From positions 1,166 through 65,165 of the forward strand of contig CAZUQN010000003.1 of NCBI GenBank assembly GCA_964622425.1: a stretch of DNA of 64,000 nt, written 5' to 3'. The DNA comes from an uncultured Ruminococcus sp. Lineage in GTDB: Bacteria > Bacillota > Clostridia > Oscillospirales > CAG-272. A model generated the notes under the pieces. It saw nothing but the letters and a program-made list of their open reading frames with translations, did no database searches and was not told the DNA's origin. Made by a program: the position numbers and the translations under genes. Of the stretch, positions 13,321 through 51,758 are shown in pieces. Positions within the stretch are counted from its first letter, which is position 1; the number at the start of each line of letters is the position of its first letter.

Positions 13321-14322
13321 ATGAATTCCAATATCAGACCTGAAAATATGACTCGTATTACAACCAAGGAGCTTGCAGATGCTTTTATCGATGAGCAGGT
13401 AAGACGTGTGCGCGAGCAGGTAGGCGACAAGAAGGTGCTCCTTGCCCTCTCGGGCGGAGTTGACAGCTCTGTTGTTGCCGCCCTCCTCATCAAGGCAATC
13501 GGTAAGCAGCTTGTTTCCGTGCACGTTAACCACGGCCTTATGCGTAAGGGCGAGAGCGAGCAGGTAATCGAAATATTCGAGAAGGGCCTTAATGCCAATC
13601 TCGTTTACGTTGACGCAAGCGAGCGTTTCTTAAATCTCCTTGCAGGTGTCAGCGAGCCCGAGAAGAAGAGAAAGATCATCGGCGCTGAGTTTATCAACGT
13701 TTTCGCTGAGGAAGCGTCCAAGCTCGAGGGCATCGAATTCCTTGCTCAGGGCACTATCTATCCCGACATTCTCGAGAGCATCAAGCAGGCAGAGGGCAAG
13801 AAGGCGGTCAAGTCGCACCACAACGTAGGCGGACTCCCCGAAGACCTTCAGTTTGAGCTTGTTGAGCCCCTGAAGCTTCTCTTCAAGGACGAGGTAAGAG
13901 TCGTTGGTGAGGCTCTCGGCCTTCCCCACGGTATGGTCTACCGTCAGCCCTTCCCCGGCCCCGGCCTCGGTGTAAGATGCCTCGGCGCGATCACCCGCGA
14001 CAGACTCGAGGCACTCAGAGAGGCAGACGCTATCCTCCGCGATGAGTTTGACAAGTGCGGTCTCGCCGAGAAGGTATGGCAGTACTTCATCGCTATTCCC
14101 GACATCAAGAGCGTTGGCGTTAAGGACGAGAGCCGCTACGAGGGTTGGCCCGCAATTATCCGCGCTGTCAATACCACCGACGCAATGAGCGCAACCATCG
14201 AGGAGATTCCCTACGCAGTGCTTCATAAGATCACCGCAAGAATCACCAATGAGGTTGAGGGAATCAATAGAGTTCTCTACGATCTTACACCTAAGCCTAC
14301 GGGAACAATCGAATGGGAGTGA
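13321..14322 (+). CDS. guaA: GMP synthase ATP-pyrophosphatase subunit (no glutamine amidotransferase domain)
   Basis: 333 aa. The SGGVDSS PP-loop lies about 50 aa from the N-terminus, and the C-terminus TGTIEWE matches the GuaA dimerisation end. Only 37 nt separate it from fhs, so no GATase domain can be encoded upstream. Confidence 0.85.
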   Translation: MNSNIRPENMTRITTKELADAFIDEQVRRVREQVGDKKVLLALSGGVDSSVVAALLIKAIGKQLVSVHVNHGLMRKGESEQVIEIFEKGLNANLVYVDASERFLNLLAGVSEPEKKRKIIGAEFINVFAEEASKLEGIEFLAQGTIYPDILESIKQAEGKKAVKSHHNVGGLPEDLQFELVEPLKLLFKDEVRVVGEALGLPHGMVYRQPFPGPGLGVRCLGAITRDRLEALREADAILRDEFDKCGLAEKVWQYFIAIPDIKSVGVKDESRYEGWPAIIRAVNTTDAMSATIEEIPYAVLHKITARITNEVEGINRVLYDLTPKPTGTIEWE

Positions 14323-14511
14323 CTTTCGCGCCGCGAAAGTCAACTATGATTGCCTGACGGCAAGTTATGATACGCTTCGCGTAAGTTTAAATGCTCGCTA
14401 CGGCTCGCATAAAGTTAGATAGGCAATCATTTCATAACGAGTGCATAGCACTCTCATAACTTTCACGCAGTGAAATCATAACGTTCGCTTTGTGAACTCA
14501 TAACTTTAAAC
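14321..14511. repeat. mini-hairpin array with constant word TCATAAC (family copy 1 of 3)
   Basis: Starts on the guaA stop codon. Example units: gagtgcATAgcactc TCATAAC tttcacGCAgtgaaa TCATAAC gttcgcTTTgtgaac TCATAAC. The left half carries the reverse word GTTATGA. Confidence 0.7.
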
Positions 14512-16933: not shown

Positions 16934-16962
16934 TTGACAAATCACTTCCTTTGAGTTATAAT
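16934..16962 (+). promoter_or_regulatory. consensus sigma-A type promoter upstream of guaB
   Basis: TTGACA (16934-16939), a 17-nt spacer, then TATAAT (16957-16962), 40 nt before the guaB ATG. Confidence 0.55.
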
Positions 16963-17002: not shown

Positions 17003-18508
17003 ATGGCTACTTACTTTAACGAACCCTCGCGCACCTTCTCGGAGTATCTTCTCGTACCCGGCTACACCGACGAGAGATGTATCCCCGGTAACGTTTCTCT
17101 TAAGACTCCCCTCGTAAAGTATCGCAAGGGTGAGGAGGAATGTCCCATAACGCTCAATATTCCTCTCACCTCCGCAATTATGCAGTCGGTTTCCAACGAC
17201 ACGATGGCTATCGCACTCGCCAAGGAAGGCGGCATCTCGTTCATCTACGGCAACCAGACCATCGAGGACGAAGCGGCAATGGTAGCAAGAGTTAAGGGCT
17301 ACAAGGCAGGCTTTGTAGTAAGTGACTCCAACCTCAAGCCCACCGATACACTCCGTGACGTGCTCGCACTCTTTGAGGAAAAGGGTCATAGCACCATGGC
17401 TGTCACAGAGGACGGCACCGCGACAGGTAAGCTTGTCGGTATCGTAACCGGCCGTGACTACCGTGTAAGCCGTATGAACGGTGACGAGCTTGTTTCCTCC
17501 TTTATGACTCCCCTTGAGAAGCTTATCACAGCTCCCGCCTCCACTACTCTTAAGAAGGCTAACGACATCATCTGGGATCACAAGCTCAATTCCCTTCCCA
17601 TCGTTGATAAGAAGGGCAACCTCAAGTACTTCGTATTCCGTAAGGACTACTCCCAGCACAAGAGCAATCCCGACGAGCTCCTCGATAAGAACAAGAGCTA
17701 CGTTGTAGGCGCAGGTGTAAACACCCGTGACTATGAAAAGAGAATTCCCGCTCTCGTTAAGGCAGGTGCGGACGTGCTCTGTATCGACTCCTCCGAGGGC
17801 TACACCATCTGGCAGAAGAGAACCATCGACTTCGTACGTGAGAAGTACGGCGACAAGGTAAAGATCGGCGCAGGTAACGTTGTTGACCGTGAGGGCTTCA
17901 GATTCCTCGCAGAGGCAGGCGCAGACTTCATCAAGGTTGGTATCGGCGGCGGCTCTATCTGTATCACCCGTGAGACCAAGGGTATCGGCAGAGGACAGGC
18001 AAGCGCGGTTATCGAGGTTGCCGAGGCTCGTGACGAGTACTTCCGCGAGACCGGTATCTACGTTCCTATCTGCTCCGACGGCGGTATCGTACACGACTAC
18101 CATATGACTCTCGCTCTCGCTATGGGCGCAGACTTCCTTATGCTCGGCAGATACTTCGCAAGATTTGACGAGTCCCCCACACCCAAGACCATGATCAACG
18201 GTCAGTACGTTAAGGAGTACTGGGGCGAGGGCTCCAACCGCGCGAGAAACTGGCAGAGATACGACCTCGGCGGCAAGGCAAGCCTCAACTTTGAGGAGGG
18301 CGTTGACTCCTACGTAACCTACGCAGGACCTCTCCACGATAACGTAGAGCGCTCACTCTATAAGGTTAAGTCCACTATGTGCAACTGCGGCGCCATCACT
18401 ATTCCCGAGCTTCAGGAAAAGGCAAAGCTCACCGTAGTCAGCTCCACAAGTATCGTCGAGGGCGGCTACCACGACGTAATGCTCAGAAATACTACGACAG
18501 TTAAGTAA
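17003..18508 (+). CDS. guaB: IMP dehydrogenase
   Basis: 501 aa. Catalytic-loop motif [12 protein letters not shown], an inserted CBS-like region, and a strong SD (AAAGGAG). Confidence 0.88.
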
Positions 18509-18905
18509 TGGGGCCAACGCCCATTAACTAAGCTTGTCAAGGACAAGCTTAACTTCACTCGGGCTTCGCCCGAACTTCACTCGCACTCCGCGCGAACTTC
18601 ACCAAATACAGTTCATGCAAAGAAGCAAATTACACAAATAACAGGCTGAAAAGCAAACAAAAGTGCTCATTATGGCGTTGTGTTCTCTAGAAACGCAACG
18701 CCAACTCTATTCGCCTCTCGGCGGGCTCTATTGCTAAAGCAGTTATATTGCTCCGCAGTTCTATTCACTTCGCGAGTTTGAAGTTAGAGGCGAATAGAAT
18801 ACAACTGTGAGGCAAAGCCGAACAATATAACTTCCCGACAGGGAAATATCACTTTTGCGTAGCAAAAATATCATGCTGTCATAGACAGCATATCACTAAA
18901 AGCTA
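18509..18905. repeat. long mini-hairpin array with words ACTTCAC and ATATCAC
   Basis: Example units: aagcttgtcAAGgacaagctt AACTTCAC tcgggcTTCgcccga ACTTCAC tcgcacTCCgcgcga ACTTCAC ... ttcccGACAgggaa ATATCAC ttttgcGTAgcaaaa ATATCA tgctgtcATAgacagca TATCAC. Confidence 0.65.
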
Positions 18906-18947
18906 TCAGATAATGCGCGCTTTCTCACCGCCAAAGGTGCAGGCGCG

Positions 18948-18988
18948 AAAAAAGCCGATACGGATCTATTTCCGTATCGGCTTTTTTC
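18948..18988. terminator. bidirectional rho-independent terminator between guaB and the convergent lipoprotein gene
   Basis: aaaaaAGCCGATACGGAtctatTCCGTATCGGCTtttttt: a 12-bp stem flanked by an A-run and a T-run. Confidence 0.75.
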
Positions 18989-19035
18989 TGTCTTTTAGAG
19001 CACTGTTTAAAACGAATGAGCACTTTTTTATTTTA

Positions 19036-20109
19036 TTAATCGTCGGAGTAGACAGCCGACACCGAGTAGTAATACGTTTCATCCTCGAAATAGGCGCTAA
19101 CACCGTCCTCTTCCATAAGAATATAAACGTTAATATCTCCAAGCTTATAGACGAAGAATCTTTCGGGATATTTTTCAAGGAAAATCGAAACCAAAGAAGG
19201 ATAGGTTTTTCCCGTTTCTTTGTCTAAATACAGTCTACCGTTTGCTTTATCTGATGCGTAGAACGTCATTGAGCGTAATGGACTTTCGGGATTTGTACAA
19301 TCCGGATCGATCACGCTATAGTTTATACCGAAGCTATTCATAGTATCTCTTCCGGCACCCGCGCTTATCTTAGCAGACATAGGCAAGCTCATAGAAACGT
19401 CAATGCTCGAAACAGGGTTCTCCTTCACCGTATCAAATTTTGAAGGATAGTATACAGAGTCCTTTAAGTATTGCAGGTAATCCGTAGCGATGTAGCCCGG
19501 ATTGCTTTCGTCCTCCGCAGCGTCGTAGCTCCAATACTTTATCTTGCCTACGTAATCATTATCAAGCGTTGTAAAGTTGCTCTCATCCATTCCAACGTAC
19601 GGCTCCTTGAATTCGTAGCGCTTTATGGAAAGCAACATTTCTTTAAACTCGGGATACTTATTAAGATCGTCAAGAGAATTCGGAACTACGTATCCGTGTC
19701 CCTCAAAATTGTAATCAACAACGTTATAATTAACCTTGACGGTCTTTCCCTTGTATACAAAGCTCAGTTCATTTCCGTCACCTAACTCATAGAGATAAAT
19801 TAAAAAAACAATCTCTTTCTGACTCTTTCTGCTATATGCATACGATACAACCGTGTTTTCGTGATTGCAATCGATCTTAATATCCTTGTAGGTTTCGTCG
19901 GTAATATCCTCGCCATATAGTTTTACGGTGATTTTAGTCTCAGTCGCAATTTCAAAATCAAGCGTGTCGGAGCCCGAAACACCGTCAATAGTTACCTGAA
20001 ACGCCGTGTTTCCTTTCGACCACGATTTACCAATATCTCCGCAACCGAACAGCGAAAAACACATCGTCAATACAATAACCAAAAGCAAAATTTTAGCTGT
20101 TGTTTTCAT
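19036..20109 (-). CDS. lipoprotein of unknown function
   Basis: Preferred start is the ATG at 20109, preceded by GGAGGTAAG. The N-terminus MKTTAKILLLVIVLTMCFSLFGC carries a lipobox. The track ORF extends further upstream without an SD. Confidence 0.6.
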   Translation of the reverse strand: MKTTAKILLLVIVLTMCFSLFGCGDIGKSWSKGNTAFQVTIDGVSGSDTLDFEIATETKITVKLYGEDITDETYKDIKIDCNHENTVVSYAYSRKSQKEIVFLIYLYELGDGNELSFVYKGKTVKVNYNVVDYNFEGHGYVVPNSLDDLNKYPEFKEMLLSIKRYEFKEPYVGMDESNFTTLDNDYVGKIKYWSYDAAEDESNPGYIATDYLQYLKDSVYYPSKFDTVKENPVSSIDVSMSLPMSAKISAGAGRDTMNSFGINYSVIDPDCTNPESPLRSMTFYASDKANGRLYLDKETGKTYPSLVSIFLEKYPERFFVYKLGDINVYILMEEDGVSAYFEDETYYYSVSAVYSDD

Positions 20110-20217
20110 CTTTCTTACCTCCTTTACGATTATAGTATATATCATTTTTTGATAATTGTCAATAGTTGTAAGTTCTGCCATAAACAGCAATGTTTCCAAA
20201 GCATCTCTGAACAACGC

Positions 20218-21534
20218 TTATTCTCTCTCTTCTTCATCCTCAGTACCCATAATTATGCTGTGTCCGGGCGCCCATGCATCACGGGTATATCCGCAATATA
20301 TACAACTGGAATATCGCGGAGACATTTGCTTGAATAAGTGCATTTCCGTATATTCATACCCACAACTGCAGATAGACTTATGTAATGAGTTGGATATAAT
20401 ACTGTTGGAAGCATGGTTATGAGTCTCCGTTATTAAGTCTCCCCATACACATTCATACGTATGGCTGGTTGCATTTGAAGATATTAAGGTACCGCTACTA
20501 TTATGCACGTGCTTAGGATGCAAATCACCGTAAAATTCACATGCACACGCCACTCCCCCATCTGATAATACATAGTTATTTGAGCAACCGTGTGGGATCA
20601 TAGCCTCGTTGATCTCAAACCAAAGTATCCCTATATTCATGTTATAAGGCATATCAGATAGATTTTGACAATATGCATATTCACCCGTTGTATCTCTCCA
20701 GCCTGTGTGCATAACAAAATCAACAACCTCTCCGTTTTCCTTTTTTACGTCATAAGCTATCATCCTGTGACCCGTTTTCTTCGGAAATAGTTCATTACCG
20801 GTATATCCGTCAGCATATCTTGCACCTCTATACATAACAGGAATACCACTATCCACCAACTCCGCCATTTTGCTAATTACATAATCGGATGAATGTCCAT
20901 CGTTTGTGCTTAAATAATTGATTTTTAGCGGTAATTGAGCATCGGCAGGATTATAAAAACCGTACGGATCAAAATAAGTGTAGTTACCAAAGATATCGTC
21001 AAAGTAGATATCGAGTAAAAGTCCTGTTTCATATAGACTCGCGGCGTATTCATCATTTTGAATCAAGCCATCATAATATCCCTCGTCGATTCCAATTCCT
21101 ATAAGGTCCAGGTGCAAATAGCCCGCATTTTGATACATATTAACAAAATTTATATAATACTCTTCGCGGCTTAATGTCCCACCTGAAGCCACATATTGGC
21201 TATACTGTGATGAAAAGAGATTATTCTCCGTTCTAATTGTGGAATATCCATTAATTAACGCAGAGTCTGTGTACGCTACACTCCAATCATATTGAGCATC
21301 AACAAAACTATCATTCCAATAGGTGTCGTAATAAGCGAGAAGCATGCTCATGGCAACGTAGCCACAGCTGCCAACAACGTTGTTGGGTATATTTCTCTTC
21401 AACTCAGAAAAGTATTTATCCGCGCTGGAGCTATACGTTTCTTCATCAGCAGAAGATGTCAGCACAAACACAGTTGAAACCAAAATAGAGAAAACAATGA
21501 TAATGGATATTATCTTTTTAACAGTTCTTTTCAT
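20218..21534 (-). CDS. secreted protein: possible papain-like cysteine peptidase domain plus a Cys/His-rich C-terminal region
   Basis: Start at 21534 after AAGGAGG. Signal peptide MKRTVKKIISIIIVFSILVSTVFVLTSSA. GSCGYVAMSMLLAYYD and TGHRMIAYD are candidate Cys and His sites. The C-terminus carries HxH motifs flanked by Cys. Confidence 0.4.
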   Translation of the reverse strand: MKRTVKKIISIIIVFSILVSTVFVLTSSADEETYSSSADKYFSELKRNIPNNVVGSCGYVAMSMLLAYYDTYWNDSFVDAQYDWSVAYTDSALINGYSTIRTENNLFSSQYSQYVASGGTLSREEYYINFVNMYQNAGYLHLDLIGIGIDEGYYDGLIQNDEYAASLYETGLLLDIYFDDIFGNYTYFDPYGFYNPADAQLPLKINYLSTNDGHSSDYVISKMAELVDSGIPVMYRGARYADGYTGNELFPKKTGHRMIAYDVKKENGEVVDFVMHTGWRDTTGEYAYCQNLSDMPYNMNIGILWFEINEAMIPHGCSNNYVLSDGGVACACEFYGDLHPKHVHNSSGTLISSNATSHTYECVWGDLITETHNHASNSIISNSLHKSICSCGYEYTEMHLFKQMSPRYSSCIYCGYTRDAWAPGHSIIMGTEDEEERE

Positions 21535-21714
21535 AAAGCCTCCTTGTTTTTCAATCAAATATCAAAAGAATAAAAATGTGTTTAATGACAATTCAAAAGT
21601 TGAATTCAGTCTTACTTCTGCATTGGCGTATACCTCCTCTAAAATGTCTGTTCATATATATAAATCCTTTTTCGATCAAATTCGTTACATAATAATTGTA
21701 ATGTTCACAAAGTA

Positions 21715-36712: not shown

Positions 36713-38032
36713 CTATACTACCCTATCAATGATTATTTTCTTATCCGTAACCGTTACTCTGCCGTGTATCGACGCGTGCTGAGGGATCGAGAGTCCCGCA
36801 GATGCCGCCGCAACGATGTCACCGACCTGCACTATCGCACCGTCTCTTACCGCGGGTGCGCTTGGAATTCCTATGTATCTGCCGAGGGCGAGCTCGACTC
36901 TGTCAAAGTCGCGTATCTCACCGCCCCATACGGCAATGCGGTCGAATCTGTCAATACCGAGGTCCTGCGCCCATTTCTTCGAGGGGATCATTCTGTACTC
37001 CCTTTCTTCCTTAGGAGAGACCTCCTCATTCTGAGTGTAGCGGAGCTTGTTCTTAGCGAGTAATTCCTTGTAATTATTTATCACGGCCCTGGGGGAAATG
37101 CCCTGACTGCAGGCCAAGTTCTCACAAATACCGCAGCCGCAACAGAGCGTCGCGGAGAGAACCATCTCTGGCATCGCAACCGCCGCACCAATAGCCGTAC
37201 GAACCATCTTGTGAGGCTCGAGGGGGTAACCGAGGAGAGCTCTTGGGCAAAGGTCGGTGCATCTCGTGCACTGACAGCAAGCCGTCTCCGCTCTTGTTAC
37301 CGCCATCTTTTCGTTTATCAATTTAGACTCGACCGCCCGCGTATTCTTCGGGAGGACGAGGAGCGCCTTGGTCGTCTTTCCGACCTCGGCTATATTGTGG
37401 TTAATTATCTTGCCCATCGAGGGACCGCCGTCGATTACCGCGTGGTCCTCATCAACCTCTATTCCAAGTCTTTCAAAGAGGTCTGCGACCGGAGTGCCTA
37501 TCGGCACACGCACGACACGCGGCTCTTTCACGTCGCCGCCGACGGTGAGCCACTTCATAGTGACGGGCTCAAAATACTTGACTGCTCTGCCGAGATTGTA
37601 CATAGTCTCGACGTTGTAAACGAGGACGCCCTTGGATATGGGAAGACTTCCCGGCTTTATAAGCCTGCCGGTCGCCTGGTAAATAAGACTTATCTCATCG
37701 CCGATGGGATATACGTTGGGCATAACCTTGACGAAAACGCCCGCGCTGAGCTGATCGCCCTCGGAAAGCGAAAGTCTTTTCGCCGTATGCTCCTTGACAC
37801 AGAATAGCGCTCTCTTTATTCTAAGACTCCAGATGACCGACTGGATACCCGCGAGTATCATCGGAAGCTCGCGCTTCATCAGCATATAGTCGGTATACAG
37901 AAGCGGCTCACATTCCGAGCCGTTTATAAGTAGAGTGTCCGCGCCCTCCGCGAGCTTAGCGTAGGACGGAAATCCCGCGCCGCCATCGCCTACGAGTCCG
38001 GCATCCTTCATTACCTGCTTTAATTCGTGCAT
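36713..38032 (-). CDS. pduS: PduS-like RnfC/NuoF-family Fe-S flavoprotein
   Basis: 439 aa. GLVGDGGAGFPSYAKL and two ferredoxin-type clusters (CCQCTRCTDLCP, CCGCGICENLAC). Confidence 0.8.
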   Translation of the reverse strand: MHELKQVMKDAGLVGDGGAGFPSYAKLAEGADTLLINGSECEPLLYTDYMLMKRELPMILAGIQSVIWSLRIKRALFCVKEHTAKRLSLSEGDQLSAGVFVKVMPNVYPIGDEISLIYQATGRLIKPGSLPISKGVLVYNVETMYNLGRAVKYFEPVTMKWLTVGGDVKEPRVVRVPIGTPVADLFERLGIEVDEDHAVIDGGPSMGKIINHNIAEVGKTTKALLVLPKNTRAVESKLINEKMAVTRAETACCQCTRCTDLCPRALLGYPLEPHKMVRTAIGAAVAMPEMVLSATLCCGCGICENLACSQGISPRAVINNYKELLAKNKLRYTQNEEVSPKEEREYRMIPSKKWAQDLGIDRFDRIAVWGGEIRDFDRVELALGRYIGIPSAPAVRDGAIVQVGDIVAAASAGLSIPQHASIHGRVTVTDKKIIIDRVV

Positions 38033-38050: not shown

Positions 38051-38136
38051 AAAATGATGTTTGCCTGTGGCAAATGGTGTTGGGCCTTGCCCAATGATGA
38101 CGCTTACGCTAATGATGTGTGGCTATGCCACATTTT
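38051..38136. repeat. mini-hairpin array with word (A)ATGATG inside the BMC operon
   Basis: AATGATG tttgccTGTggcaaa TGGTG ttgggcCTTgcccaa TGATG ... AATGATG tgtggcTATgccaca. Confidence 0.6.
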
Positions 38137-38246
38137 TTAGGTAAACTACAACCTTTTTACTATCAAAAAACTTACACGGTATGGGGTTAATATCGGTGTT
38201 TTATTTCACTAACAAAATCGTATCGTTTCGGTCGAGGGGATTTTGA

Positions 38247-45541: not shown

Positions 45542-45600
45542 TTTCGTTTCTCCTTGTGATATATATTAATTATTTTTTGTTTTCGCTGATGGTTATTTAG

Positions 45601-45740
45601 GTTGAGTTATGAGAGTGCTATCGCGCTCAACGTTATGGTATGATTGCCCATCAAACCTTAAACTTGGCGCCAGCCAATCATAACTACCCGAAGGGTATTT
45701 TAACTCATAACTTGCCCCACAGGGCAATCATAACTGCGAA
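45601..45740. repeat. mini-hairpin array with word TCATAAC (family copy 2 of 3)
   Basis: ttggcGCCAgccaa TCATAAC tacccGAAgggta ttttaac TCATAAC ttgcccCACAgggcaa TCATAAC. The left half carries GTTATGA. Shares the core tatgattgccc with the other two copies. Confidence 0.7.
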
Positions 45741-45743
45741 GCG

Positions 45744-46583
45744 TCAATCTACGATACGCTTCGCTTTTAGCTCCGCCTCCTCCTGCACTACCGCCTGCGC
45801 TCTCTCCGCATTCTCGTAAACGATCTTGTAGCAGAGTGCGTCGATAACGACGAGTCTCGCGAGGTGGGAATTCAGACCGAGGGTTGAGTGCCTCGTCTCC
45901 TCGGTATCGGTCAGGAGCACGATCTCCGACAGCCTTGCTATCGGTGACTTCTCGCGCGAGGTGATAGCTATCGTCCGCGCTCCGCGCGACCTCGCCACCT
46001 TCATCGACTCAACGATGTCCTTTGACGCGCCCGACTGCGATATGCCGATGACCGTGTCACCCGGCCTCAGCTGGGAGACCGCGATAGCCTGCATATGCGT
46101 ATCTGCATACGCCACAGAGTTACAACCTGCCCTGAGTAGCTTGTTGCTCGCCTCCGCCGCAACCTGCGCAGATGCGCCAAGTCCGATGAGCACTACCCTG
46201 CCCGCGCCCGCAATCGCCTTCACCGCGGCAGTCATAGCCTCGGGCGAGAGTGTCTTCTTCGTCCTCTCGAGCGACATGTAAGCGTCGTTGCAGACCTTCT
46301 CGAATATGCTGAAGCAGTCGTCCGACGCCGTGATGGTCGGAGCGATAACCTTCTTGTCGTGCTCTCTCGCCAGAGCGATCTTCAGATCCTGGTATCCCGA
46401 GCATCCGAGTCTCTTGGAGAATCGGACTATCGTTGCCTCGCTGCTCTCACACATGGAGGCAAGGTCTGTTATGGAATACGGAAGGATCTCTCCCGAGTGG
46501 GAGAATAACCAATCAGCGACTCTCTTCTCGGACTTGCCCATGTCATTGTACAAGAGCTGCGCCTGAAGTAGGGTCCTGTTCAA
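45744..46583 (-). CDS. MurR/RpiR family transcriptional regulator (HTH + SIS domain)
   Basis: 279 aa, TTG start 7 nt after AGGAGG. N-terminal HTH (SEKRVADWLF, TDLASMCESSEATIVRF) and a SIS domain. Confidence 0.85.
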   Translation of the reverse strand: MNRTLLQAQLLYNDMGKSEKRVADWLFSHSGEILPYSITDLASMCESSEATIVRFSKRLGCSGYQDLKIALAREHDKKVIAPTITASDDCFSIFEKVCNDAYMSLERTKKTLSPEAMTAAVKAIAGAGRVVLIGLGASAQVAAEASNKLLRAGCNSVAYADTHMQAIAVSQLRPGDTVIGISQSGASKDIVESMKVARSRGARTIAITSREKSPIARLSEIVLLTDTEETRHSTLGLNSHLARLVVIDALCYKIVYENAERAQAVVQEEAELKAKRIVD

Positions 46584-46617
46584 AATCTTGCCTCCTTTCG
46601 TGTTTTTTTGGCGTTTT

Positions 46618-46894
46618 TGAAAATAATTTTCATTTTTCTGTAATTTTTGTGAGGTTTATCTGAAAATTATGAAAATTGTTTCCAAATTTTATGAAAAATA
46701 CTTTCACAATTCCGATTTTAGCACAGAAATACCCCTTTGTCAATACGTTTTTTGAATATTTTTTATGCCAAGACGTGCGTTTAAATATTTTAAATATTTT
46801 ATATGAATTTCACAAAAAACCGCAAATTTTGAAAATAATTTTCATTTTTTCGCCATTTTTGAAATTTTCTTAATTTTTTTGAAAAAATCTTTCA
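46618..46894. promoter_or_regulatory. four TGAAA-N5-TTTCA palindromes in the rpiR/sipW divergent region (candidate operator array)
   Basis: Sites at 46618-46632 and 46830-46844 are both TGAAAATAATTTTCA, each inside an identical 24-mer. The other two are 46692-46706 (TGAAAAATACTTTCA) and 46880-46894 (TGAAAAAATCTTTCA). Confidence 0.35.
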
Positions 46895-46971
46895 TTTACA
46901 ATTTGTTCACAAATAAAGATAGCCGCCCAATCTTGAGAGCGGCTGAGTTTGGAAAACTTAAAATATTACTC

Positions 46972-47940: not shown

Positions 47941-48189
47941 TGCCTTCCCTTGTGAGGCAACGAAGTGGCGTTTCGGTAGTGAATTGCATTGATAATGCAA
48001 GAGCCGAAACGTGACCGAGCCGAAGCGAGACAGGGGGACCATTTATGGTGGATGAGTAGTTACAGCGCATGCTTATTTCAACGTAGACATTTTAACTCCT
48101 CATCCGTCATACTCAATCAAGATTTCGTATGCCACCTTCTCCAACAGGAGAAGGCTCTCTTGATTATCAACTTTCAATTTTCAACTTTC

Positions 48190-48295
48190 AATTATCCACT
48201 CACGTTCGTGAGTGATGATATACAACGCGAAGCGTTGATGATATACGTTCACTCCTCGTGAGCGATGATATGCTCGACTTCGTCGAGATACTTGG
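48190..48295. repeat. mini-hairpin array with word ATGATATA
   Basis: cactcacGTTCgtgagtg ATGATATA caacgcGAAgcgttg ATGATATA cgttcacTCCTCgtgagcg ATGATAT gctcgacTTCgtcgag. Confidence 0.65.
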
Positions 48296-48315: not shown

Positions 48316-48719
48316 GGGGCCGGCTGAATTTGGGATGGAAATCAGTAGCCGTAAGGGAACCGAACTAATAAGTCTTACGGCGATAACTTTTAGTGTCTTT
48401 CGCCACGCCGAGTCTTGTAAAGTCGCACTTGACCGCGACTCGTCGCAGCAAAACCCATCAAAAATTTGTTCGCCGTAAGATGCGAAGCAGTTATGAAAGA
48501 ATAGATTTTTTCATAGACGAGCCAAATCTTTCGAGAAATATACAGATATTTAAGAAAAATTCGGTGATGTATAGGGGAAAATCTATCTTTCATAACCTTG
48601 TGAGTTTAGTTCCCTTACGGCTATCCGCCCGAGAGGCGTATATACATACGTCGGAGGAAGGAAACGGCGATAGAAAAAGAGTGTAAGAGGTGGAAATTAC
48701 GAGAATTTCCACCTCTCAC
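48316..48719. repeat. structured intergenic element, long copy (possible ncRNA)
   Basis: Shares both ends with 28405-28613 and has about 195 extra internal nt. Long-range pairing TAGCCGTAAGGGAAC (48345 region) with GTTCCCTTACGGCTA (48610 region). Same terminal hairpin. Confidence 0.4.
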
Positions 48720-50683: not shown

Positions 50684-50992
50684 ATGTCAGTACTTCACAT
50701 TGGAAAAGCAGAATTTGATGAGAAGATAAGAAACAGCGAGAAGCCCGTCCTTGTGGACTTCTACGCAACCTGGTGCGGCCCGTGTAAGATGATCGCGCCC
50801 ATCCTAGAGGAGATCGCCGAGGAGCACCCCGAGTACGTTATCGCTAAGGTAAACGTTGACGACGAGCCCGAGCTCGCAAAGGAGTTTAAGATCATGTCCA
50901 TCCCCGCCCTCTTTGTCCTGAGAGACGGCGAGATCACCGATAAGGCCGTCGGCTACCGCGATAAGGACGCTCTGCTAGATCTTCTAAGCTAA
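50684..50992 (+). CDS. trxA: thioredoxin
   Basis: 102 aa. WCGPCK active site. Confidence 0.9.
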   Translation: MSVLHIGKAEFDEKIRNSEKPVLVDFYATWCGPCKMIAPILEEIAEEHPEYVIAKVNVDDEPELAKEFKIMSIPALFVLRDGEITDKAVGYRDKDALLDLLS

Positions 50993-50994
50993 AA

Positions 50995-51150
50995 CGCCGC
51001 CCTCGGCGTTAACGTTCACGCAGTGAACATATCGCACCGTCGCGAGCGACGGTATATCGCTGTCTAACCTTTCAGACAATATCGCATCTGCCAAAGGCAG
51101 ATATATCGCTTTAATCCGCCCACGTGTGGGCGGATTAAACATTTTCGTCC
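50995..51150. repeat. mini-hairpin array with word ATATCGC
   Basis: gttcacGCAgtgaac ATATCGC accgtcgCGAGcgacggt ATATCGC tgtctAACCTTTCagaca ATATCGC atctgccAAAggcagat ATATCGC, followed by ttaatccgcccACGTgtgggcggattaa. Confidence 0.7.
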
Positions 51151-51400
51151 AAGCCCACGGGTGGGACTAGGGGGACCGCAACGGGGTTCCTCGATGCGAG
51201 CGAAGTCGAGCATCAGGGGTTCGCGTGCTGGCGGTGGATGAGTAGTTACAAAGCGAAGCGGTGGAGGAGTCATTCTGCGTACAAAGTCTTGCAACTACTC
51301 ATCCGTCATTTGCTCCGCAAAATCCACCTTCCCTCACAAGGGAAGGCCGAGAAAAAAGAGCCTCGCATTTCTGCGAGGCTCTAAAACTTTGTATTCAACA

Positions 51401-51508
51401 CTCCCCTTTGGGGAGGGATGGGCCACGAAGTGGCGGGTGAGGTTTAATTAGTTAGAGTATCGCAACCTCATCCACCATAAATGGTCCCCCTTCCCCAAAG
51501 GGGGAAGG
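51401..51508. repeat. MITE-like pair of inverted two-hairpin repeat units
   Basis: Left arm: CTCCCCtttgGGGGAG..GCCACgaaGTGGC GGGTGAGG. Right arm: CCTCATCC ACCATaaATGGT CCCCCTTCCCCaaagGGGGAAGG. Confidence 0.5.
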
Positions 51509-51692
51509 TCGTAGATGCTACGCACTTCGAATTTTGCACTTGCGGCTCTGCCGCACCGACCGAGCCCGCAGGCGAGACAAGGGGGACCATTTATGGTGGA
51601 TGAGGTGTACTTCGTACAAAACCTTACAACTACTCATCCGTCATTCTCAAACAAGTTTTCGAACGACACCTTCCCTCACAAGGGAAGGCCGA

Positions 51693-51723
51693 GAAAAAAG
51701 AGCCTCGCATTTCTGCGAGGCTC
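51693..51723 (-). terminator. rho-independent terminator of the giant gene (duplicated at 51352-51381)
   Basis: On the minus strand: GAGCCTCGCagaaatGCGAGGCTC followed by TTTTTT. Confidence 0.7.
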
Positions 51724-51758
51724 AAAGCTTTTTAAAAGCCGAAATTGTTTTTGCGTTT

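What the first reader, a model, noticed from the sequence alone, without database searches (positions are those of the whole stretch)
18509..18905. About 400-bp hairpin-word array after guaB using different fixed words (ACTTCAC, ATATCAC, CTATT-type)
This is the same grammar as the TCATAAC elements but with other constant words. At least nine small hairpins, plus one 11-bp stem (GGCGTTGTGTT...AACGCAACGCC), fill the whole space between the guaB stop and a strong canonical terminator at 18948-18988. A real terminator follows, so the array itself is not needed for termination.
Basis: seen in the sequence. Interest (0 to 1): 0.55.

Follow-up and report, generated by a model that had tools for sequence, protein, structure and literature searches.

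The report
Gut-1-type hairpin repeats after guaB
The 400 bases after guaB are two tandem copies of a multi-copy, hairpin-rich intergenic repeat related to the 'Gut-1' RNA motif (Rfam RF01706, function unknown); they sit in the guaB 3' untranslated region, and this genome shows the family is larger, mirror-symmetric and more variable than its database entry says.

Summary
Window 18509-18905 folds far better than shuffles (z = -9.1 as RNA, -8.75 as DNA) into about 13 local hairpins plus one 13-bp long-range stem, separated by repeated 7-8-nt words.

It is two tandem elements, not one array:
- Element 1 (18529-18602): an anchor hairpin plus ACTTCAC-spaced hairpins.
- A 70-nt A-rich spacer.
- Element 2 (18673-18896): a full-length element with an anchor hairpin, a left array closed by TCTATTCGCCTCT/AGAGGCGAATAGA, and a right array of ATATCAC-spaced hairpins.

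Rfam Gut-1 hits the right array at its threshold. A covariance model built only from public Gut-1 loci scores element 2 at 88.5 bits over its full length. It also finds the window's TCATAAC and ATATCGC elements.

The family is dispersed and enriched in this genome. It is absent from the guaB 3' end in 159 of 160 related loci, and members usually start at the stop codon of a co-oriented gene.

Most likely this is a REP/BIME- or BOX-like modular repeat carried in the guaB 3' UTR, acting at most as a decay barrier or insulator. That function is inferred, not shown.

Verdict: a new variant of a known but uncharacterised kind, of moderate interest.

The parts
16934..16962 (+). guaB promoter-like site (TTGACA-17-TATAAT). 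It defines guaB as its own transcription unit, whose 3' UTR holds the arrays.
   Evidence: 12 of 12 consensus matches.
17003..18508 (+). guaB (IMP dehydrogenase), stop codon TAA at 18506-18508.
   Evidence: Pfam IMPDH 3e-108 plus CBS domain; ORF listing.
18506..18526 (+). First hairpin, TAATGGG-GCCAACG-CCCATTA, with the guaB stop codon inside its 5' arm.
   Evidence: Fold of 18504-18604, z = -5.25.
18529..18602 (+). Element 1, the short form. Anchor hairpin TAAGCTTGTC-aag-GACAAGCTTA, then AACTTCAC words at 18551, 18573 and 18595 separated by hairpins (T)CGGGC-ttc-GCCCG(A) and CGC-actcc-GCG. The two small hairpins differ by one compensatory G-C to C-G swap.
   Evidence: Same layout as 50991-51109.
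18603..18672 (+). A-rich spacer between the two elements, essentially unstructured.
   Evidence: Centroid structure; sequence.
18673..18703 (+). Anchor ('big') hairpin of element 2: GGCGTTGTGTT...AACGCAACGCC, 12-13 bp with one U.G pair on the + strand.
   Evidence: Aligns with the anchor hairpin of the public Gut-1 loci.
18704..18800 (+). Left arm of element 2. Words ACTCTATT, GCTCTATT, GTTATATT and GTTCTATT separate short hairpins. The whole arm is closed by the 13-bp stem 18706-18718 / 18786-18798 (TCTATTCGCCTCT / AGAGGCGAATAGA).
   Evidence: MFE and centroid structures. In the 8-sequence alignment the closing stem is 96.8% paired, with double changes at 4 pairs.
18801..18896 (+). Right arm of element 2. 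A GGC-aaa-GCC hairpin, then ATATAAC / ATATCAC / ATATCAT / ATATCAC words separating TTCCC-gaca-GGGAA, TTTTGC-gta-GCAAAA and ATGCTGTC-ata-GACAGCAT. Read on the minus strand this is a Gut-1 motif.
   Evidence: Rfam RF01706, 18820-18898 (-), 50.4 bits against gathering 50, E = 5.7e-07..
18947..18988 (.). Bidirectional intrinsic terminator (18-bp stem with an A-run before and a T-run after). It closes the guaB transcription unit and shields the arrays from the convergent gene at 19036-20214 (-).

Best explanation
The tract is two tandem copies of a dispersed, modular, palindrome-rich intergenic repeat of the Gut-1 (Rfam RF01706) superfamily. These copies have accumulated between the guaB stop codon and the guaB terminator.

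**Anatomy.** A full element has three parts:
- An anchor hairpin.
- A left array of short hairpins separated by GTKAW-type words. It is closed by a long-range stem between the first word (plus the first stem arm) and its complement.
- A mirror-image right array of hairpins separated by WTMAC-type words.

Short forms keep only the anchor hairpin and one array. Element 2 (18673-18896) is a full element. Element 1 (18529-18602) is a short form.

**Shown here.**
- The structure and its significance against shuffles.
- Homology to public Gut-1 loci.
- Covariation in the stems.
- The multi-copy, lineage-enriched distribution.
- The position at gene 3' ends.
- Absence from almost all orthologous guaB loci.

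**Inferred.**
- guaB has its own strong promoter, and the only + strand terminator lies after the arrays. The elements are therefore transcribed as a roughly 440-nt guaB 3' UTR.
- There they behave like REP/BIME elements of enterobacteria or BOX elements of pneumococci. That is, a self-propagating or duplicative repeat whose stable, sequence-diverse hairpins can block 3'-to-5' exonucleases and insulate the transcript.
- The short conserved words, held single-stranded between the hairpin 'clamps', are the recognition sites of a still unknown factor that binds or spreads the family.
- The element is not a guaB-specific regulator and is not needed for termination.
For: **Structure.** z = -9.1 (RNA) and -8.75 (DNA).

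**Family membership.**
- Rfam Gut-1 hit at 18820-18898.
- The flanks of the original Gut-1 seed loci show the same extended layout: anchor hairpin, left arm, closing stem, right arm.
- Model R2, built from 7 public elements without this locus, scores 18673-18874 (+) at 88.5 bits, E about 2e-23, over the full model. The minus strand scores 26.2 bits.

**Covariation (8-sequence alignment).** 91.9% of cells are paired against 77.9% in shuffles (0 of 500 reach it). 31 pairs carry double changes against 11 in shuffles. Slid controls give 37-45% paired.

**Dispersed and lineage-enriched.**
- R1 finds 5 elements in this 64 kb, 4 of them not used in training. It finds 7 hits in 540 kb of related genomes and 0 in 465 kb of metagenome loci.
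- Four copies more than 90% identical sit in different flanks within one human gut metagenome.
- Some seed contigs carry tandem hits 240 nt apart.

**Not a guaB feature.** There is no array after guaB in the closest relatives (96% and 94% amino-acid identity). Only L067 among 160 loci has one.

**3'-end context.** 6 of 11 elements start within -22 to +25 nt of the stop codon of a co-oriented ORF.

**Transcription unit.** Perfect promoter at 16934-16962. The only + strand terminator is at 18947-18988.

**Other points.**
- Loops are not conserved; many are UUCG- or GNRA-type or triloops. Only the words are conserved.
- Unit period varies from 20 to 27 nt, which argues against helical-phase DNA binding.
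- In viral contig L198, Gut-1 arrays are intercistronic in a phage head-gene operon, the place where REP-like stabilisers act.
Against: - No expression data exist, so transcription of the arrays is inferred from promoter and terminator scans only.
- A strong 18-bp terminator hairpin already protects the guaB 3' end. Extra barriers have no obvious benefit in a monocistronic unit.
- In several family members the anchor hairpin is followed by a U-rich first word and looks like a terminator. That would leave the rest of the element untranscribed from upstream.
- There is no single-strand bias. Non-Watson-Crick pairs are G.U in left arms and A.C (G.U on the other strand) in right arms, 22 against 25 in total. 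The symmetry is therefore at the DNA level, and an RNA role is not demonstrated.
- No mobilising gene was found among the 30 window proteins scanned.
- No terminal inverted repeats or target-site duplications could be defined.
- REP/BIME hairpins are sequence-conserved within a genome, whereas here they differ from unit to unit.
Confidence: 0.5

Rival explanations
1. A DNA-level element. The convergent arrays of 7-8-bp words are multiple binding sites for one sequence-specific protein, as in the multi-site ends of Tn7- or Mu-like transposons, iterons, or arm-type recombinase sites. On this reading the elements are miniature non-autonomous mobile elements or protein-loading sites, and RNA plays no part.
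For: - Left and right words are reverse complements of each other in four lineages with different words. These are GTGATATT/ATATCAC, GTGAAAT/ATTTCAC, GTTATGA/TCATAAC and GTGGTTTT/AAAACCAC.
- The mirror symmetry extends to flank pairs, with G.U in left arms against A.C in right arms, and there is no net strand bias.
- The copies are dispersed and lineage-enriched.
- Some elements are bracketed by terminators on both sides.
- All words share one core (WTMAC/GTKAW), so a single protein could read them.
Against: - Spacing between words varies from 20 to 27 bp, so sites are not kept on one helical face.
- The spacers are always hairpins with compensatory changes between copies, and a 13-bp long-range stem covaries. 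A duplex-binding protein does not need either.
- Single-arm elements are common.
- In element 2 the left words (CTCTATT) no longer match the right words (ATATCAC).
- No transposase or recombinase was found nearby, and no TIR or TSD.
Confidence: 0.2
2. A stand-alone, trans-acting small RNA gene or genes, as Gut-1 is labelled in Rfam. The RNA would display repeated single-stranded heptamers between hairpin clamps as a multivalent sponge or landing pad for an RNA-binding protein (CsrB/RsmZ-like) or for complementary RNAs. It might be released from the guaB 3' UTR by processing.
For: - Rfam classes Gut-1 as an sRNA, and Weinberg et al. 2010 rated it a likely RNA that is not cis-regulatory.
- The stems covary.
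- Loops vary while linkers are conserved, which is the design of a multivalent display.
- Family members occur in the mRNA sense inside a phage operon and after guaB in L067.
Against: - No + strand promoter-like site lies within 18300-19200. The only promoter-like match is a weak one on the minus strand built from the words themselves.
- Both orientations of the arrays occur directly after stop codons, for example L067 against element 1.
- Many copies exist per genome, with different words.
- The element is mirror-symmetric.
- No candidate partner is known.
Confidence: 0.2
3. A hairpin cluster that itself terminates or attenuates guaB transcription, or a CRISPR-, TIGR- or ToxI-like processed repeat array.
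For: - The tract lies downstream of a stop codon.
- Clusters of hairpins have been proposed to terminate transcription (PMC8355165, listed).
- The layout of repeated short words with variable inserts superficially recalls repeat-spacer arrays.
Against: - None of the array hairpins has a U-tract on the + strand, and a canonical terminator follows.
- The words are only 7-8 nt and the 'spacers' are self-complementary.
- Units are not near-identical, unlike ToxI repeats.
- No cas, tas or toxin genes flank the tract.
- The elements also occur upstream of genes and between co-directional genes.
Confidence: 0.05
4. Chance clustering of hairpins, or an assembly artefact.
For: None found.
Against: - z is about -9 against shuffles.
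- Homologous elements exist in independent public assemblies and metagenomes.
- There are no long exact repeats of the kind that cause mis-assembly.
Confidence: 0.01

Closest known systems
Gut-1 RNA motif (Rfam RF01706; Weinberg et al. 2010, PMC2864571)
   Same: - Three or more short, sequence-variable hairpins separated by a conserved GUGAWAU linker. The Rfam model hits 18820-18898 at 50.4 bits.
- The flanks of the published seed loci share the anchor hairpin, closing stem, junction (GGCGAAUAnAA) and mirror right arm with window 18673-18896.
- The taxonomic setting matches: uncultured gut Clostridia.
   Different: - The Rfam model is 77 nt and covers one arm only. Here it matches the right arm read on the opposite strand, barely at threshold. 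The true left arm carries diverged words (CTCTATT) and 3-5-bp stems.
- Element 1 (ACTTCAC words), the TCATAAC, ATATCGC and GATGATAT elements, and the extended mirror architecture are not in the Rfam description.
- The source text says only that the motif is found in human-gut sequences. Here the hosts are Oscillospiraceae-type MAGs, largely from ruminant guts.
- No function is known for Gut-1.
REP / BIME elements of Enterobacteria (with RAYT transposases). This comparison rests on established knowledge, not on tests run here.
   Same: - Short palindromic units clustered in arrays in both orientations with conserved short linkers.
- Located after stop codons, between convergent genes and between cistrons.
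- Co-transcribed with the upstream gene.
- Many copies per genome, and lineage-specific.
- A short conserved word next to a hairpin (GTAG plus palindrome in REPs).
   Different: - REP hairpins are nearly identical within a genome, whereas here each unit has a different stem.
- There is no GTAG.
- No RAYT (Y1 HUH) gene was seen in the 30 window proteins scanned.
- Gut-1-type elements have a fixed higher-order layout of anchor hairpin, closed left arm and mirror right arm.
BOX elements of Streptococcus pneumoniae (boxA-boxB(n)-boxC modular repeats). This comparison rests on established knowledge.
   Same: - A modular intergenic repeat with a variable number of internal units.
- Complementary outer parts give a large folded structure.
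- Dispersed in more than 100 copies and transcribed with neighbouring genes.
- The mobilising enzyme is unknown.
   Different: - There is no sequence similarity.
- BOX modules are 45-59 nt and conserved in sequence.
- Gut-1-type units are about 22 nt, made of a word plus a variable hairpin.
CsrB/RsmZ-type protein-sponge RNAs. This comparison rests on established knowledge.
   Same: A short conserved motif is repeated many times and held single-stranded by intervening stable hairpins of variable sequence.
   Different: - The motif is not GGA.
- No partner protein is known.
- The elements are multi-copy, mirror-symmetric and embedded in 3' UTRs rather than single regulated genes.

Membership tests
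Gut-1 RNA motif (RF01706) | Score at or above the curated gathering threshold of the Rfam covariance model. | tested here: met
   18820-18898 (-), 50.4 bits against gathering 50, E = 5.7e-07 for the 64-kb search, model positions 1-77 of 77. The match is marginal and lies on the strand opposite to guaB.
Gut-1 RNA motif (RF01706) | Consecutive hairpins whose stems covary while the GUGAWAU linkers stay constant. | tested here: met
   In alignment A2, 91.9% of cells are paired against 77.9% in shuffles, and 31 pairs carry double changes against 11. Linker columns are conserved.
Gut-1 RNA motif (RF01706) | Expressed as a non-coding RNA. | not testable with these tools
   No transcriptome is available. 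Strand evidence is ambiguous, with G.U 22 against A.C 25, mirrored by arm.
Extended Gut-1 element (layout seen in the flanks of the 2010 seed loci) | Anchor hairpin, then a left arm closed by word1+stem / junction pairing, then a mirror right arm, in that order. | tested here: met
   Model R2, built without the window, scores 88.5 bits over positions 1-205 of 205 on the + strand, against 26.2 bits on the minus strand. The closing stem is 96.8% paired with 4 covarying pairs.
REP/BIME (RAYT-associated) | Genome-wide near-identical palindromic units with a conserved 5' GTAG, plus a RAYT (Y1 transposase) gene. | tested here: not met
   Stems differ from unit to unit and there is no GTAG. None of the 30 window proteins scanned has a Y1_Tnp domain. 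The rest of the genome was not available.
MITE | Terminal inverted repeats flanked by target-site duplications, with presence/absence at otherwise identical sites. | tested here: inconclusive
   An outer inverted repeat exists in one seed locus (GGGGCUGCCGGAGAGGC / GCCUCUCCUGACGGCAGCCCC), but none was found here and no TSD was recognised. Related guaB loci lack the tract, but their flanks are too diverged to map insertion boundaries.
Intrinsic terminator / hairpin-cluster terminator | GC-rich hairpin followed by a U-tract on the transcribed strand. | tested here: not met
   The only + strand terminator-like site in 18300-19200 is 18947-18988, outside the arrays.
CRISPR / TIGR arrays | Direct repeats of about 23 nt or more with unique, non-self-complementary spacers, plus associated cas/tas genes. 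| tested here: not met
   Words are 7-8 nt and the inserts are palindromic hairpins. Flanking genes are guaB and two proteins with no Pfam match.
Type III toxin-antitoxin antitoxin RNA (ToxI-like) | Near-identical tandem repeats of about 34-44 nt directly upstream of a toxin endoribonuclease gene. | tested here: not met
   Units are about 22 nt with different stems. No toxin gene follows; a terminator and a convergent gene do.

The most novel reading that the evidence does not exclude
Gut-1 as catalogued would be one arm of a previously undescribed class of mirror-symmetric, modular nucleic-acid element.

Its short words co-vary between the two arms and between lineages: GTGATAT/ATATCAC, GTGAAAT/ATTTCAC, GTTATGA/TCATAAC and GTGGTTTT/AAAACCAC. 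The intervening hairpins are free to take any sequence.

That pattern would fit either of two things:
- A dedicated, still unknown recognition and propagation system that reads 'word + any hairpin'. This would be a REP/RAYT-like system of a new kind in gut Clostridia and their phages.
- An RNA that zips its two arms into a ladder of four-way junctions.

In either case it would be a bidirectional 3'-end module that works whichever way it is transcribed or replicated.
Probability: 0.15. Interest if true: 0.7.

Novelty: new variant of a known kind. Interest (0 to 1): 0.45.

Why it matters
Gut-1 has sat in Rfam since 2010 as an orphan motif known only from human-gut metagenomes, with no host, context or function.

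This locus and its relatives add four things:
- **A host clade.** Oscillospiraceae-type gut Clostridia, and phage-like contigs.
- **A larger anatomy.** An anchor hairpin, a closed left arm and a mirror right arm, plus short forms.
- **A context rule.** Elements usually start at the stop codon of a co-oriented gene.
- **A core-word rule.** WTMAC on right arms and GTKAW on left arms, which unifies arrays that look unrelated.

If the family is a REP/BIME-like repeat, these poorly studied anaerobes carry a large, unannotated layer of 3'-UTR structure. That layer could affect mRNA decay, operon punctuation and genome plasticity, and it confounds sRNA and terminator prediction.

It also yields a concrete bait, [word-hairpin]x3, for finding the cognate protein.

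For guaB itself the consequence is probably small. The tract is a lineage-specific passenger, not a conserved purine regulator.

Tried and rejected
**Same-species comparison failed.**
- No contig encodes exactly this GuaB.
- The best GuaB matches are 96% identical in genomes and 94% in metagenomes.
- Strain-level gain or loss of units, and insertion boundaries, therefore could not be studied.

**BLAST.** The tract has no match in the phage or plasmid collections.

**Viral-contig scans.** Scans for ATATCAC x3 and TCATAAC x3 returned more than 230 loci. After filtering for dissimilar hairpin spacers only L171 and L198 were real; the rest are ordinary tandem repeats.

**Strand assignment by G.U against A.C.**
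- Span-limited folds of both strands are equally good.
- An unbiased count gives 22 against 25, mirrored by arm.
- I withdrew my first inference that conserved U.G pairs prove the + strand. They are a property of the word ends in the left arm, and the right arm has the mirror image.

**Models.** The RNAalifold structure chosen automatically for model R2 differs from the curated one. I used R2 only as an unbiased homology test.

**Hypotheses considered and dropped.**
- CRISPR, TIGR, ToxI, attC and iterons.
- Spo0A, Rex, LexA and parS boxes. There are only partial resemblances, for example TTTCAC-GCA-GTGAAA against parS.
- boxA/nut. GCUCUAUU resembles boxA, but only in this one diverged arm.
- Box C/K-turn. 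GUGAUGA occurs in the 48213 array only.
- tRNA-anticodon or codon display.
- Pairing of the words with the guaB 5' UTR or with the 16S rRNA 3' end.

**Literature.** Searches found nothing on Gut-1 beyond the 2010 paper.
Full report
**1. What is at 18509-18905**

guaB (IMP dehydrogenase, Pfam 3e-108) occupies 17003-18508 and has a perfect TTGACA-17-TATAAT promoter-like site at 16934-16962. The 397 bases after its stop codon fold much better than chance:
- RNA MFE -129 kcal/mol against -88.9 +/- 4.4 for dinucleotide shuffles, z = -9.12.
- With DNA parameters z = -8.75.
- The opposite strand is equally structured.

The centroid structure gives these hairpins:
- 18511-18522. This extends to 7 bp as TAATGGG/CCCATTA and includes the TAA stop codon.
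- 18529-18551 (10 bp).
- 18559-18573 (6 bp).
- A weak hairpin around 18581-18594.
- 18673-18703 (12-13 bp).
- 18730-18743, 18767-18784, 18811-18819, 18832-18845, 18853-18867 and 18873-18891.

There is also a 13-bp long-range stem, 18706-18718 with 18786-18798.

- AACTTCAC at 18551, 18573 and 18595, exactly 22 nt apart. There are only four copies in the 64 kb.
- CTATT or TATATT words at 18707, 18728, 18744 and 18761.
- ATATAAC or ATATCA(C/T) at 18825, 18846, 18868 and 18890.

The only + strand terminator-like site is the 18-bp hairpin plus T-run at 18947-18988. It carries an A-run on its other side, so it is bidirectional. No ORF of 40 aa or more lies in the tract. The exception is 18603-18672, a 70-nt A-rich stretch with almost no structure.

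**2. It is partly catalogued: Gut-1**

A scan of the window against Rfam gives one hit, Gut-1 (RF01706), at 18820-18898 on the minus strand. It scores 50.4 bits against a gathering score of 50, E = 5.7e-07. Gut-1 is a 77-nt model of three hairpins separated by GUGAAAU. Weinberg et al. 2010 (PMC2864571) described it as a likely non-coding RNA found only in human-gut metagenomes, and no function was proposed. I found no later literature.

**3. The published seed loci show a larger element, and the window has the whole of it**

The Stockholm file of the 2010 paper keeps the flanks of each seed. In these loci the modelled motif is only the left arm of a roughly 200-nt element. In order, the element has:
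- An anchor hairpin of 10-13 bp, often terminator-like.
- A left arm of three or four hairpins separated by GUGAUAUU or GUGAAAUU.
- A junction whose GGCGAAUAUAA pairs with the first word plus the 5' arm of the first hairpin (UUAUAUUCGCC).
- A right arm of three or four hairpins separated by the reverse-complement word AUAUCAC or AUUUCAC.

Window 18673-18896 aligns module by module with six such loci and with viral contig L171. On that alignment the structure is 91.9% paired against 77.9% in column shuffles (0 of 500 reach it). 31 pairs carry double changes against 11 expected. The slid controls give 37-45% paired. The closing stem is 96.8% paired, with compensatory changes at four positions.

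A covariance model built from the seven public elements only (R2) scores window 18673-18874 at 88.5 bits (E about 2e-23; calibration is rough) over the full model on the + strand. The minus strand scores 26.2 bits.

The CTATT array and the ATATCAC array are therefore the two arms of one element, oriented like guaB. The Rfam hit is its right arm read backwards. The left arm here is the more decayed one, with words CTCTATT/GTTATATT and stems of 3-5 bp.

**4. Element 1 and the other arrays of the window**

The same models find:
- 14319-14504 (+): 43.3 and 36.7 bits.
- 45556-45766 (-): 39.4 and 34.3 bits.
- 50991-51109 (+): 34.9 and 21.4 bits.
- Weakly, 38059-38146.

They have an anchor hairpin, a closing stem ATGATTGCC/GGCAATCAT, and left words GTTATGA facing right words TCATAAC.

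50991-51109 is a short form: an anchor hairpin followed directly by four ATATCGC-spaced hairpins. Element 1 of the finding (18529-18602) has exactly that layout, with ACTTCAC words. Its two small hairpins (CGGGC-TTC-GCCCG and CGC-ACTCC-GCG) differ by one compensatory G-C to C-G swap, which suggests unit duplication followed by divergence. The same is seen for TTTCAC-GCA-GTGAAA and GTTCGC-TTT-GTGAAC at 14461-14497.

Lined up, all right-arm words share a 3' core WTMAC: ATATCAC, ATATCAT, ATATCGC, ATATAAC, TCATAAC, ACTTCAC, ATTTCAC, and AAACCAC in L052. Left-arm words share its complement, GTKAW. The 'different fixed words' are variants of one motif. Identity of the remaining two or three bases within an array is most simply explained by common descent of the units.

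**5. Distribution and context**

The organism is an uncultured Oscillospiraceae/Eubacteriales-type Clostridium. The closest GuaB is 96% identical, in a 'Ruminococcus sp.' MAG, and most relatives come from ruminant guts.

None of the 20 closest guaB loci has more than a plain terminator after guaB. Over all 160 related loci (about 1 Mb), a word-plus-hairpin detector and model R1 find elements only in L052, L020, L007, L067, L076 and L045. That is 7 hits in 540 kb and 0 in 465 kb, against 5 in this 64 kb.

One of them, L067, is a canonical Gut-1 (72.7 bits) starting about 30 nt after the guaB stop, in a lineage only 79% identical in GuaB. Given the number of loci examined this could well be coincidence; a rough estimate expects about one such case.

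Four copies more than 90% identical lie in different flanks within one human-gut metagenome. Some contigs carry tandem copies 240 nt apart or copies in both orientations.

Six of eleven elements begin between -22 and +25 nt of the stop codon of a co-oriented ORF. In three window cases the stop codon is inside the first hairpin.

Two elements lie on phage-like contigs:
- **L198.** Gut-1 arrays (58.2 bits) sit between the portal gene, a small ORF and the next gene of a head module, in the mRNA sense.
- **L171.** A full element lies between a convergent host-like glycosidase gene and a head-tail adaptor gene.

The 30 window proteins scanned are ordinary chromosomal genes and include no transposase. 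BLAST of the tract against the phage and plasmid collections finds nothing.

**6. Strand and symmetry**

I first took the invariant U.G pairs in the left-arm helices as evidence for the + strand. An unbiased count does not support that. Allowing G.U and A.C equally, over 17 oriented elements, the result is 22 G.U against 25 A.C. The G.U pairs are in left arms and the A.C pairs (G.U on the other strand) are in right arms.

The element is therefore mirror-symmetric at the DNA level. Each arm, read 5' to 3' towards the centre on its own strand, is a 'hairpin-GUKAW' array. This explains why the Rfam model hits right arms on the opposite strand.

Left and right words are reverse complements in four lineages with four different words. 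For such members the single-sequence MFE zips the arms into nested word-word helices with hairpins branching off. But single-arm elements are common, and in element 2 the two arms no longer match, so arm-arm pairing cannot be the general requirement.

Unit length varies from 20 to 27 nt while the linker length is constant. This speaks against helical-phase binding on duplex DNA. It favours words presented between hairpin clamps in a single strand.

**7. Most likely explanation**

Shown:
- A real, covarying, multi-hairpin structure.
- Membership of an extended Gut-1 family.
- A multi-copy, lineage-enriched distribution that is non-orthologous at the guaB locus.
- A preference for gene 3' ends.
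- No own promoter, and no termination signal inside the arrays.

Inferred:
- The two elements are passengers in a roughly 440-nt guaB 3' UTR.
- They behave like REP/BIME or BOX repeats. That is, a duplicative palindromic repeat whose stable hairpins can stall 3'-to-5' exonucleases and insulate the transcript, with the WTMAC/GTKAW words as the recognition sites of an unknown factor.

I put this at about 0.5. Identity as Gut-1-superfamily repeats is about 0.9. The specific decay-barrier role is about 0.3.

Rivals:
- A purely DNA-level multi-site protein-binding or miniature mobile element (0.2).
- A processed or independent sponge-like sRNA (0.2).
- A hairpin-cluster terminator or CRISPR/ToxI-like array (0.05).
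- An artefact (0.01).

**8. Novelty and interest**

The motif is known, so this is not categorically new. Several things are not in the Rfam entry or in the 2010 text that I could read:
- The extended mirror architecture.
- The short forms.
- The unifying core word.
- The stop-codon context.
- The host clade.
- The presence in phage operons.
- The strong expansion in this genome.

I rate it a new variant of a known kind, with interest 0.45. The most novel reading still allowed is a new REP/RAYT-like 'word + any hairpin' recognition system, or a zipped junction-ladder RNA serving as a bidirectional 3'-end module. I put that at about 0.15, and it would deserve about 0.7 if true.

Noticed in passing
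window 14319-14504 (+), 45556-45766 (-), 63790-63915: These are TCATAAC/GTTATGA elements, full-length relatives of the guaB element. The first follows the guaA-like GMP synthase gene, with the TGA stop inside its anchor hairpin. 45664-45735 and 63865-63910 are homologous copies that differ by one whole unit, leaving two adjacent TCATAAC words at 63879-63892.
   Followed up: partly
window 50991-51140: A short-form element lies directly after a thioredoxin-like ORF (TAA at 50990-50992). It has an anchor hairpin, then four ATATCGC-spaced hairpins, then a 13-bp hairpin TTTAATCCGCCCAC..GTGGGCGGATTAAA.
   Followed up: partly
window 48166-48290: A GATGATAT(A)-spaced hairpin array at 48197-48290 is preceded by AACTTTCAATTTTCAACTTTCAATT. 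A 22-nt stretch of that sequence (48172-48193) is identical to sequence in the flank of Gut-1 seed BAAZ01023714. This conserved companion sequence is unexplained.
   Followed up: no
window 38059-38146: Another word-plus-hairpin array (TGATG/TGGTG words with hairpins TTTGCC..GGCAAA, TTGGGC..GCCCAA and TGTGGC..GCCACA) lies just upstream of the start of the gene at 36713-38032 (-). R1 gives a weak hit of 19 bits.
   Followed up: no
window 48135, 51327, 51489, 51669, 59112, 59659, 63229, 63684, 63726: A second repeat family is present. Nine copies of the hairpin CCTTCYCY-N3-5-RGRGAAGG occur where 0 are expected. One arm is Shine-Dalgarno-like and the other anti-Shine-Dalgarno-like. The family is REP-like and intergenic.
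   Followed up: partly
window 51146-51726: A diverged tandem duplication of about 340 bp fills the non-coding region after the ATATCGC element. It includes a 60-nt repeat that is 98% identical (51325-51384 and 51667-51726), made of the CCTTCCCT hairpin plus an AGAGCCTCGCA..TGCGAGGCTCT hairpin.
   Followed up: no
window 48346-48372 / 48597-48623: A 27-nt inverted repeat, 85% complementary (TAGCCGTAAGGGAACCGAACTAATAAG), encloses 224 nt inside a roughly 900-bp non-coding region between convergent genes. It has no Rfam match.
   Followed up: no
window 46600-46900: A very AT-rich region upstream of the signal-peptidase-like gene carries repeated AATTTTGAAAATAATTTTCATTTT units. These are reminiscent of CodY-type boxes.
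   Followed up: no
L067 3876-3948: A canonical Gut-1 motif (GUGAAAU words, 72.7 bits) starts about 30 nt after the guaB stop in a goat-rectum Oscillospiraceae MAG whose GuaB is only 79% identical. This is a second, probably independent, guaB/Gut-1 juxtaposition.
   Followed up: partly
L198 3755-3925 and 4275-4400; L171 1346-1555: Family members occur on phage-like contigs. In L198, arrays are intercistronic in a head-gene operon (portal, array, small ORF, array). In L171, a full element lies between a host-like glycosidase gene and a head-tail adaptor gene.
   Followed up: partly
L007 258-525: A 98-bp tandem repeat (2.7 copies, 94% matches) has units that each contain three GACTTCATC words separated by tiny hairpins. 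GATGAAGTC words in the opposite orientation lie just upstream.
   Followed up: no
window 19036-21558 (-): The two genes convergent with guaB (392 and 446 aa) have no Pfam match at E <= 0.001.
   Followed up: no
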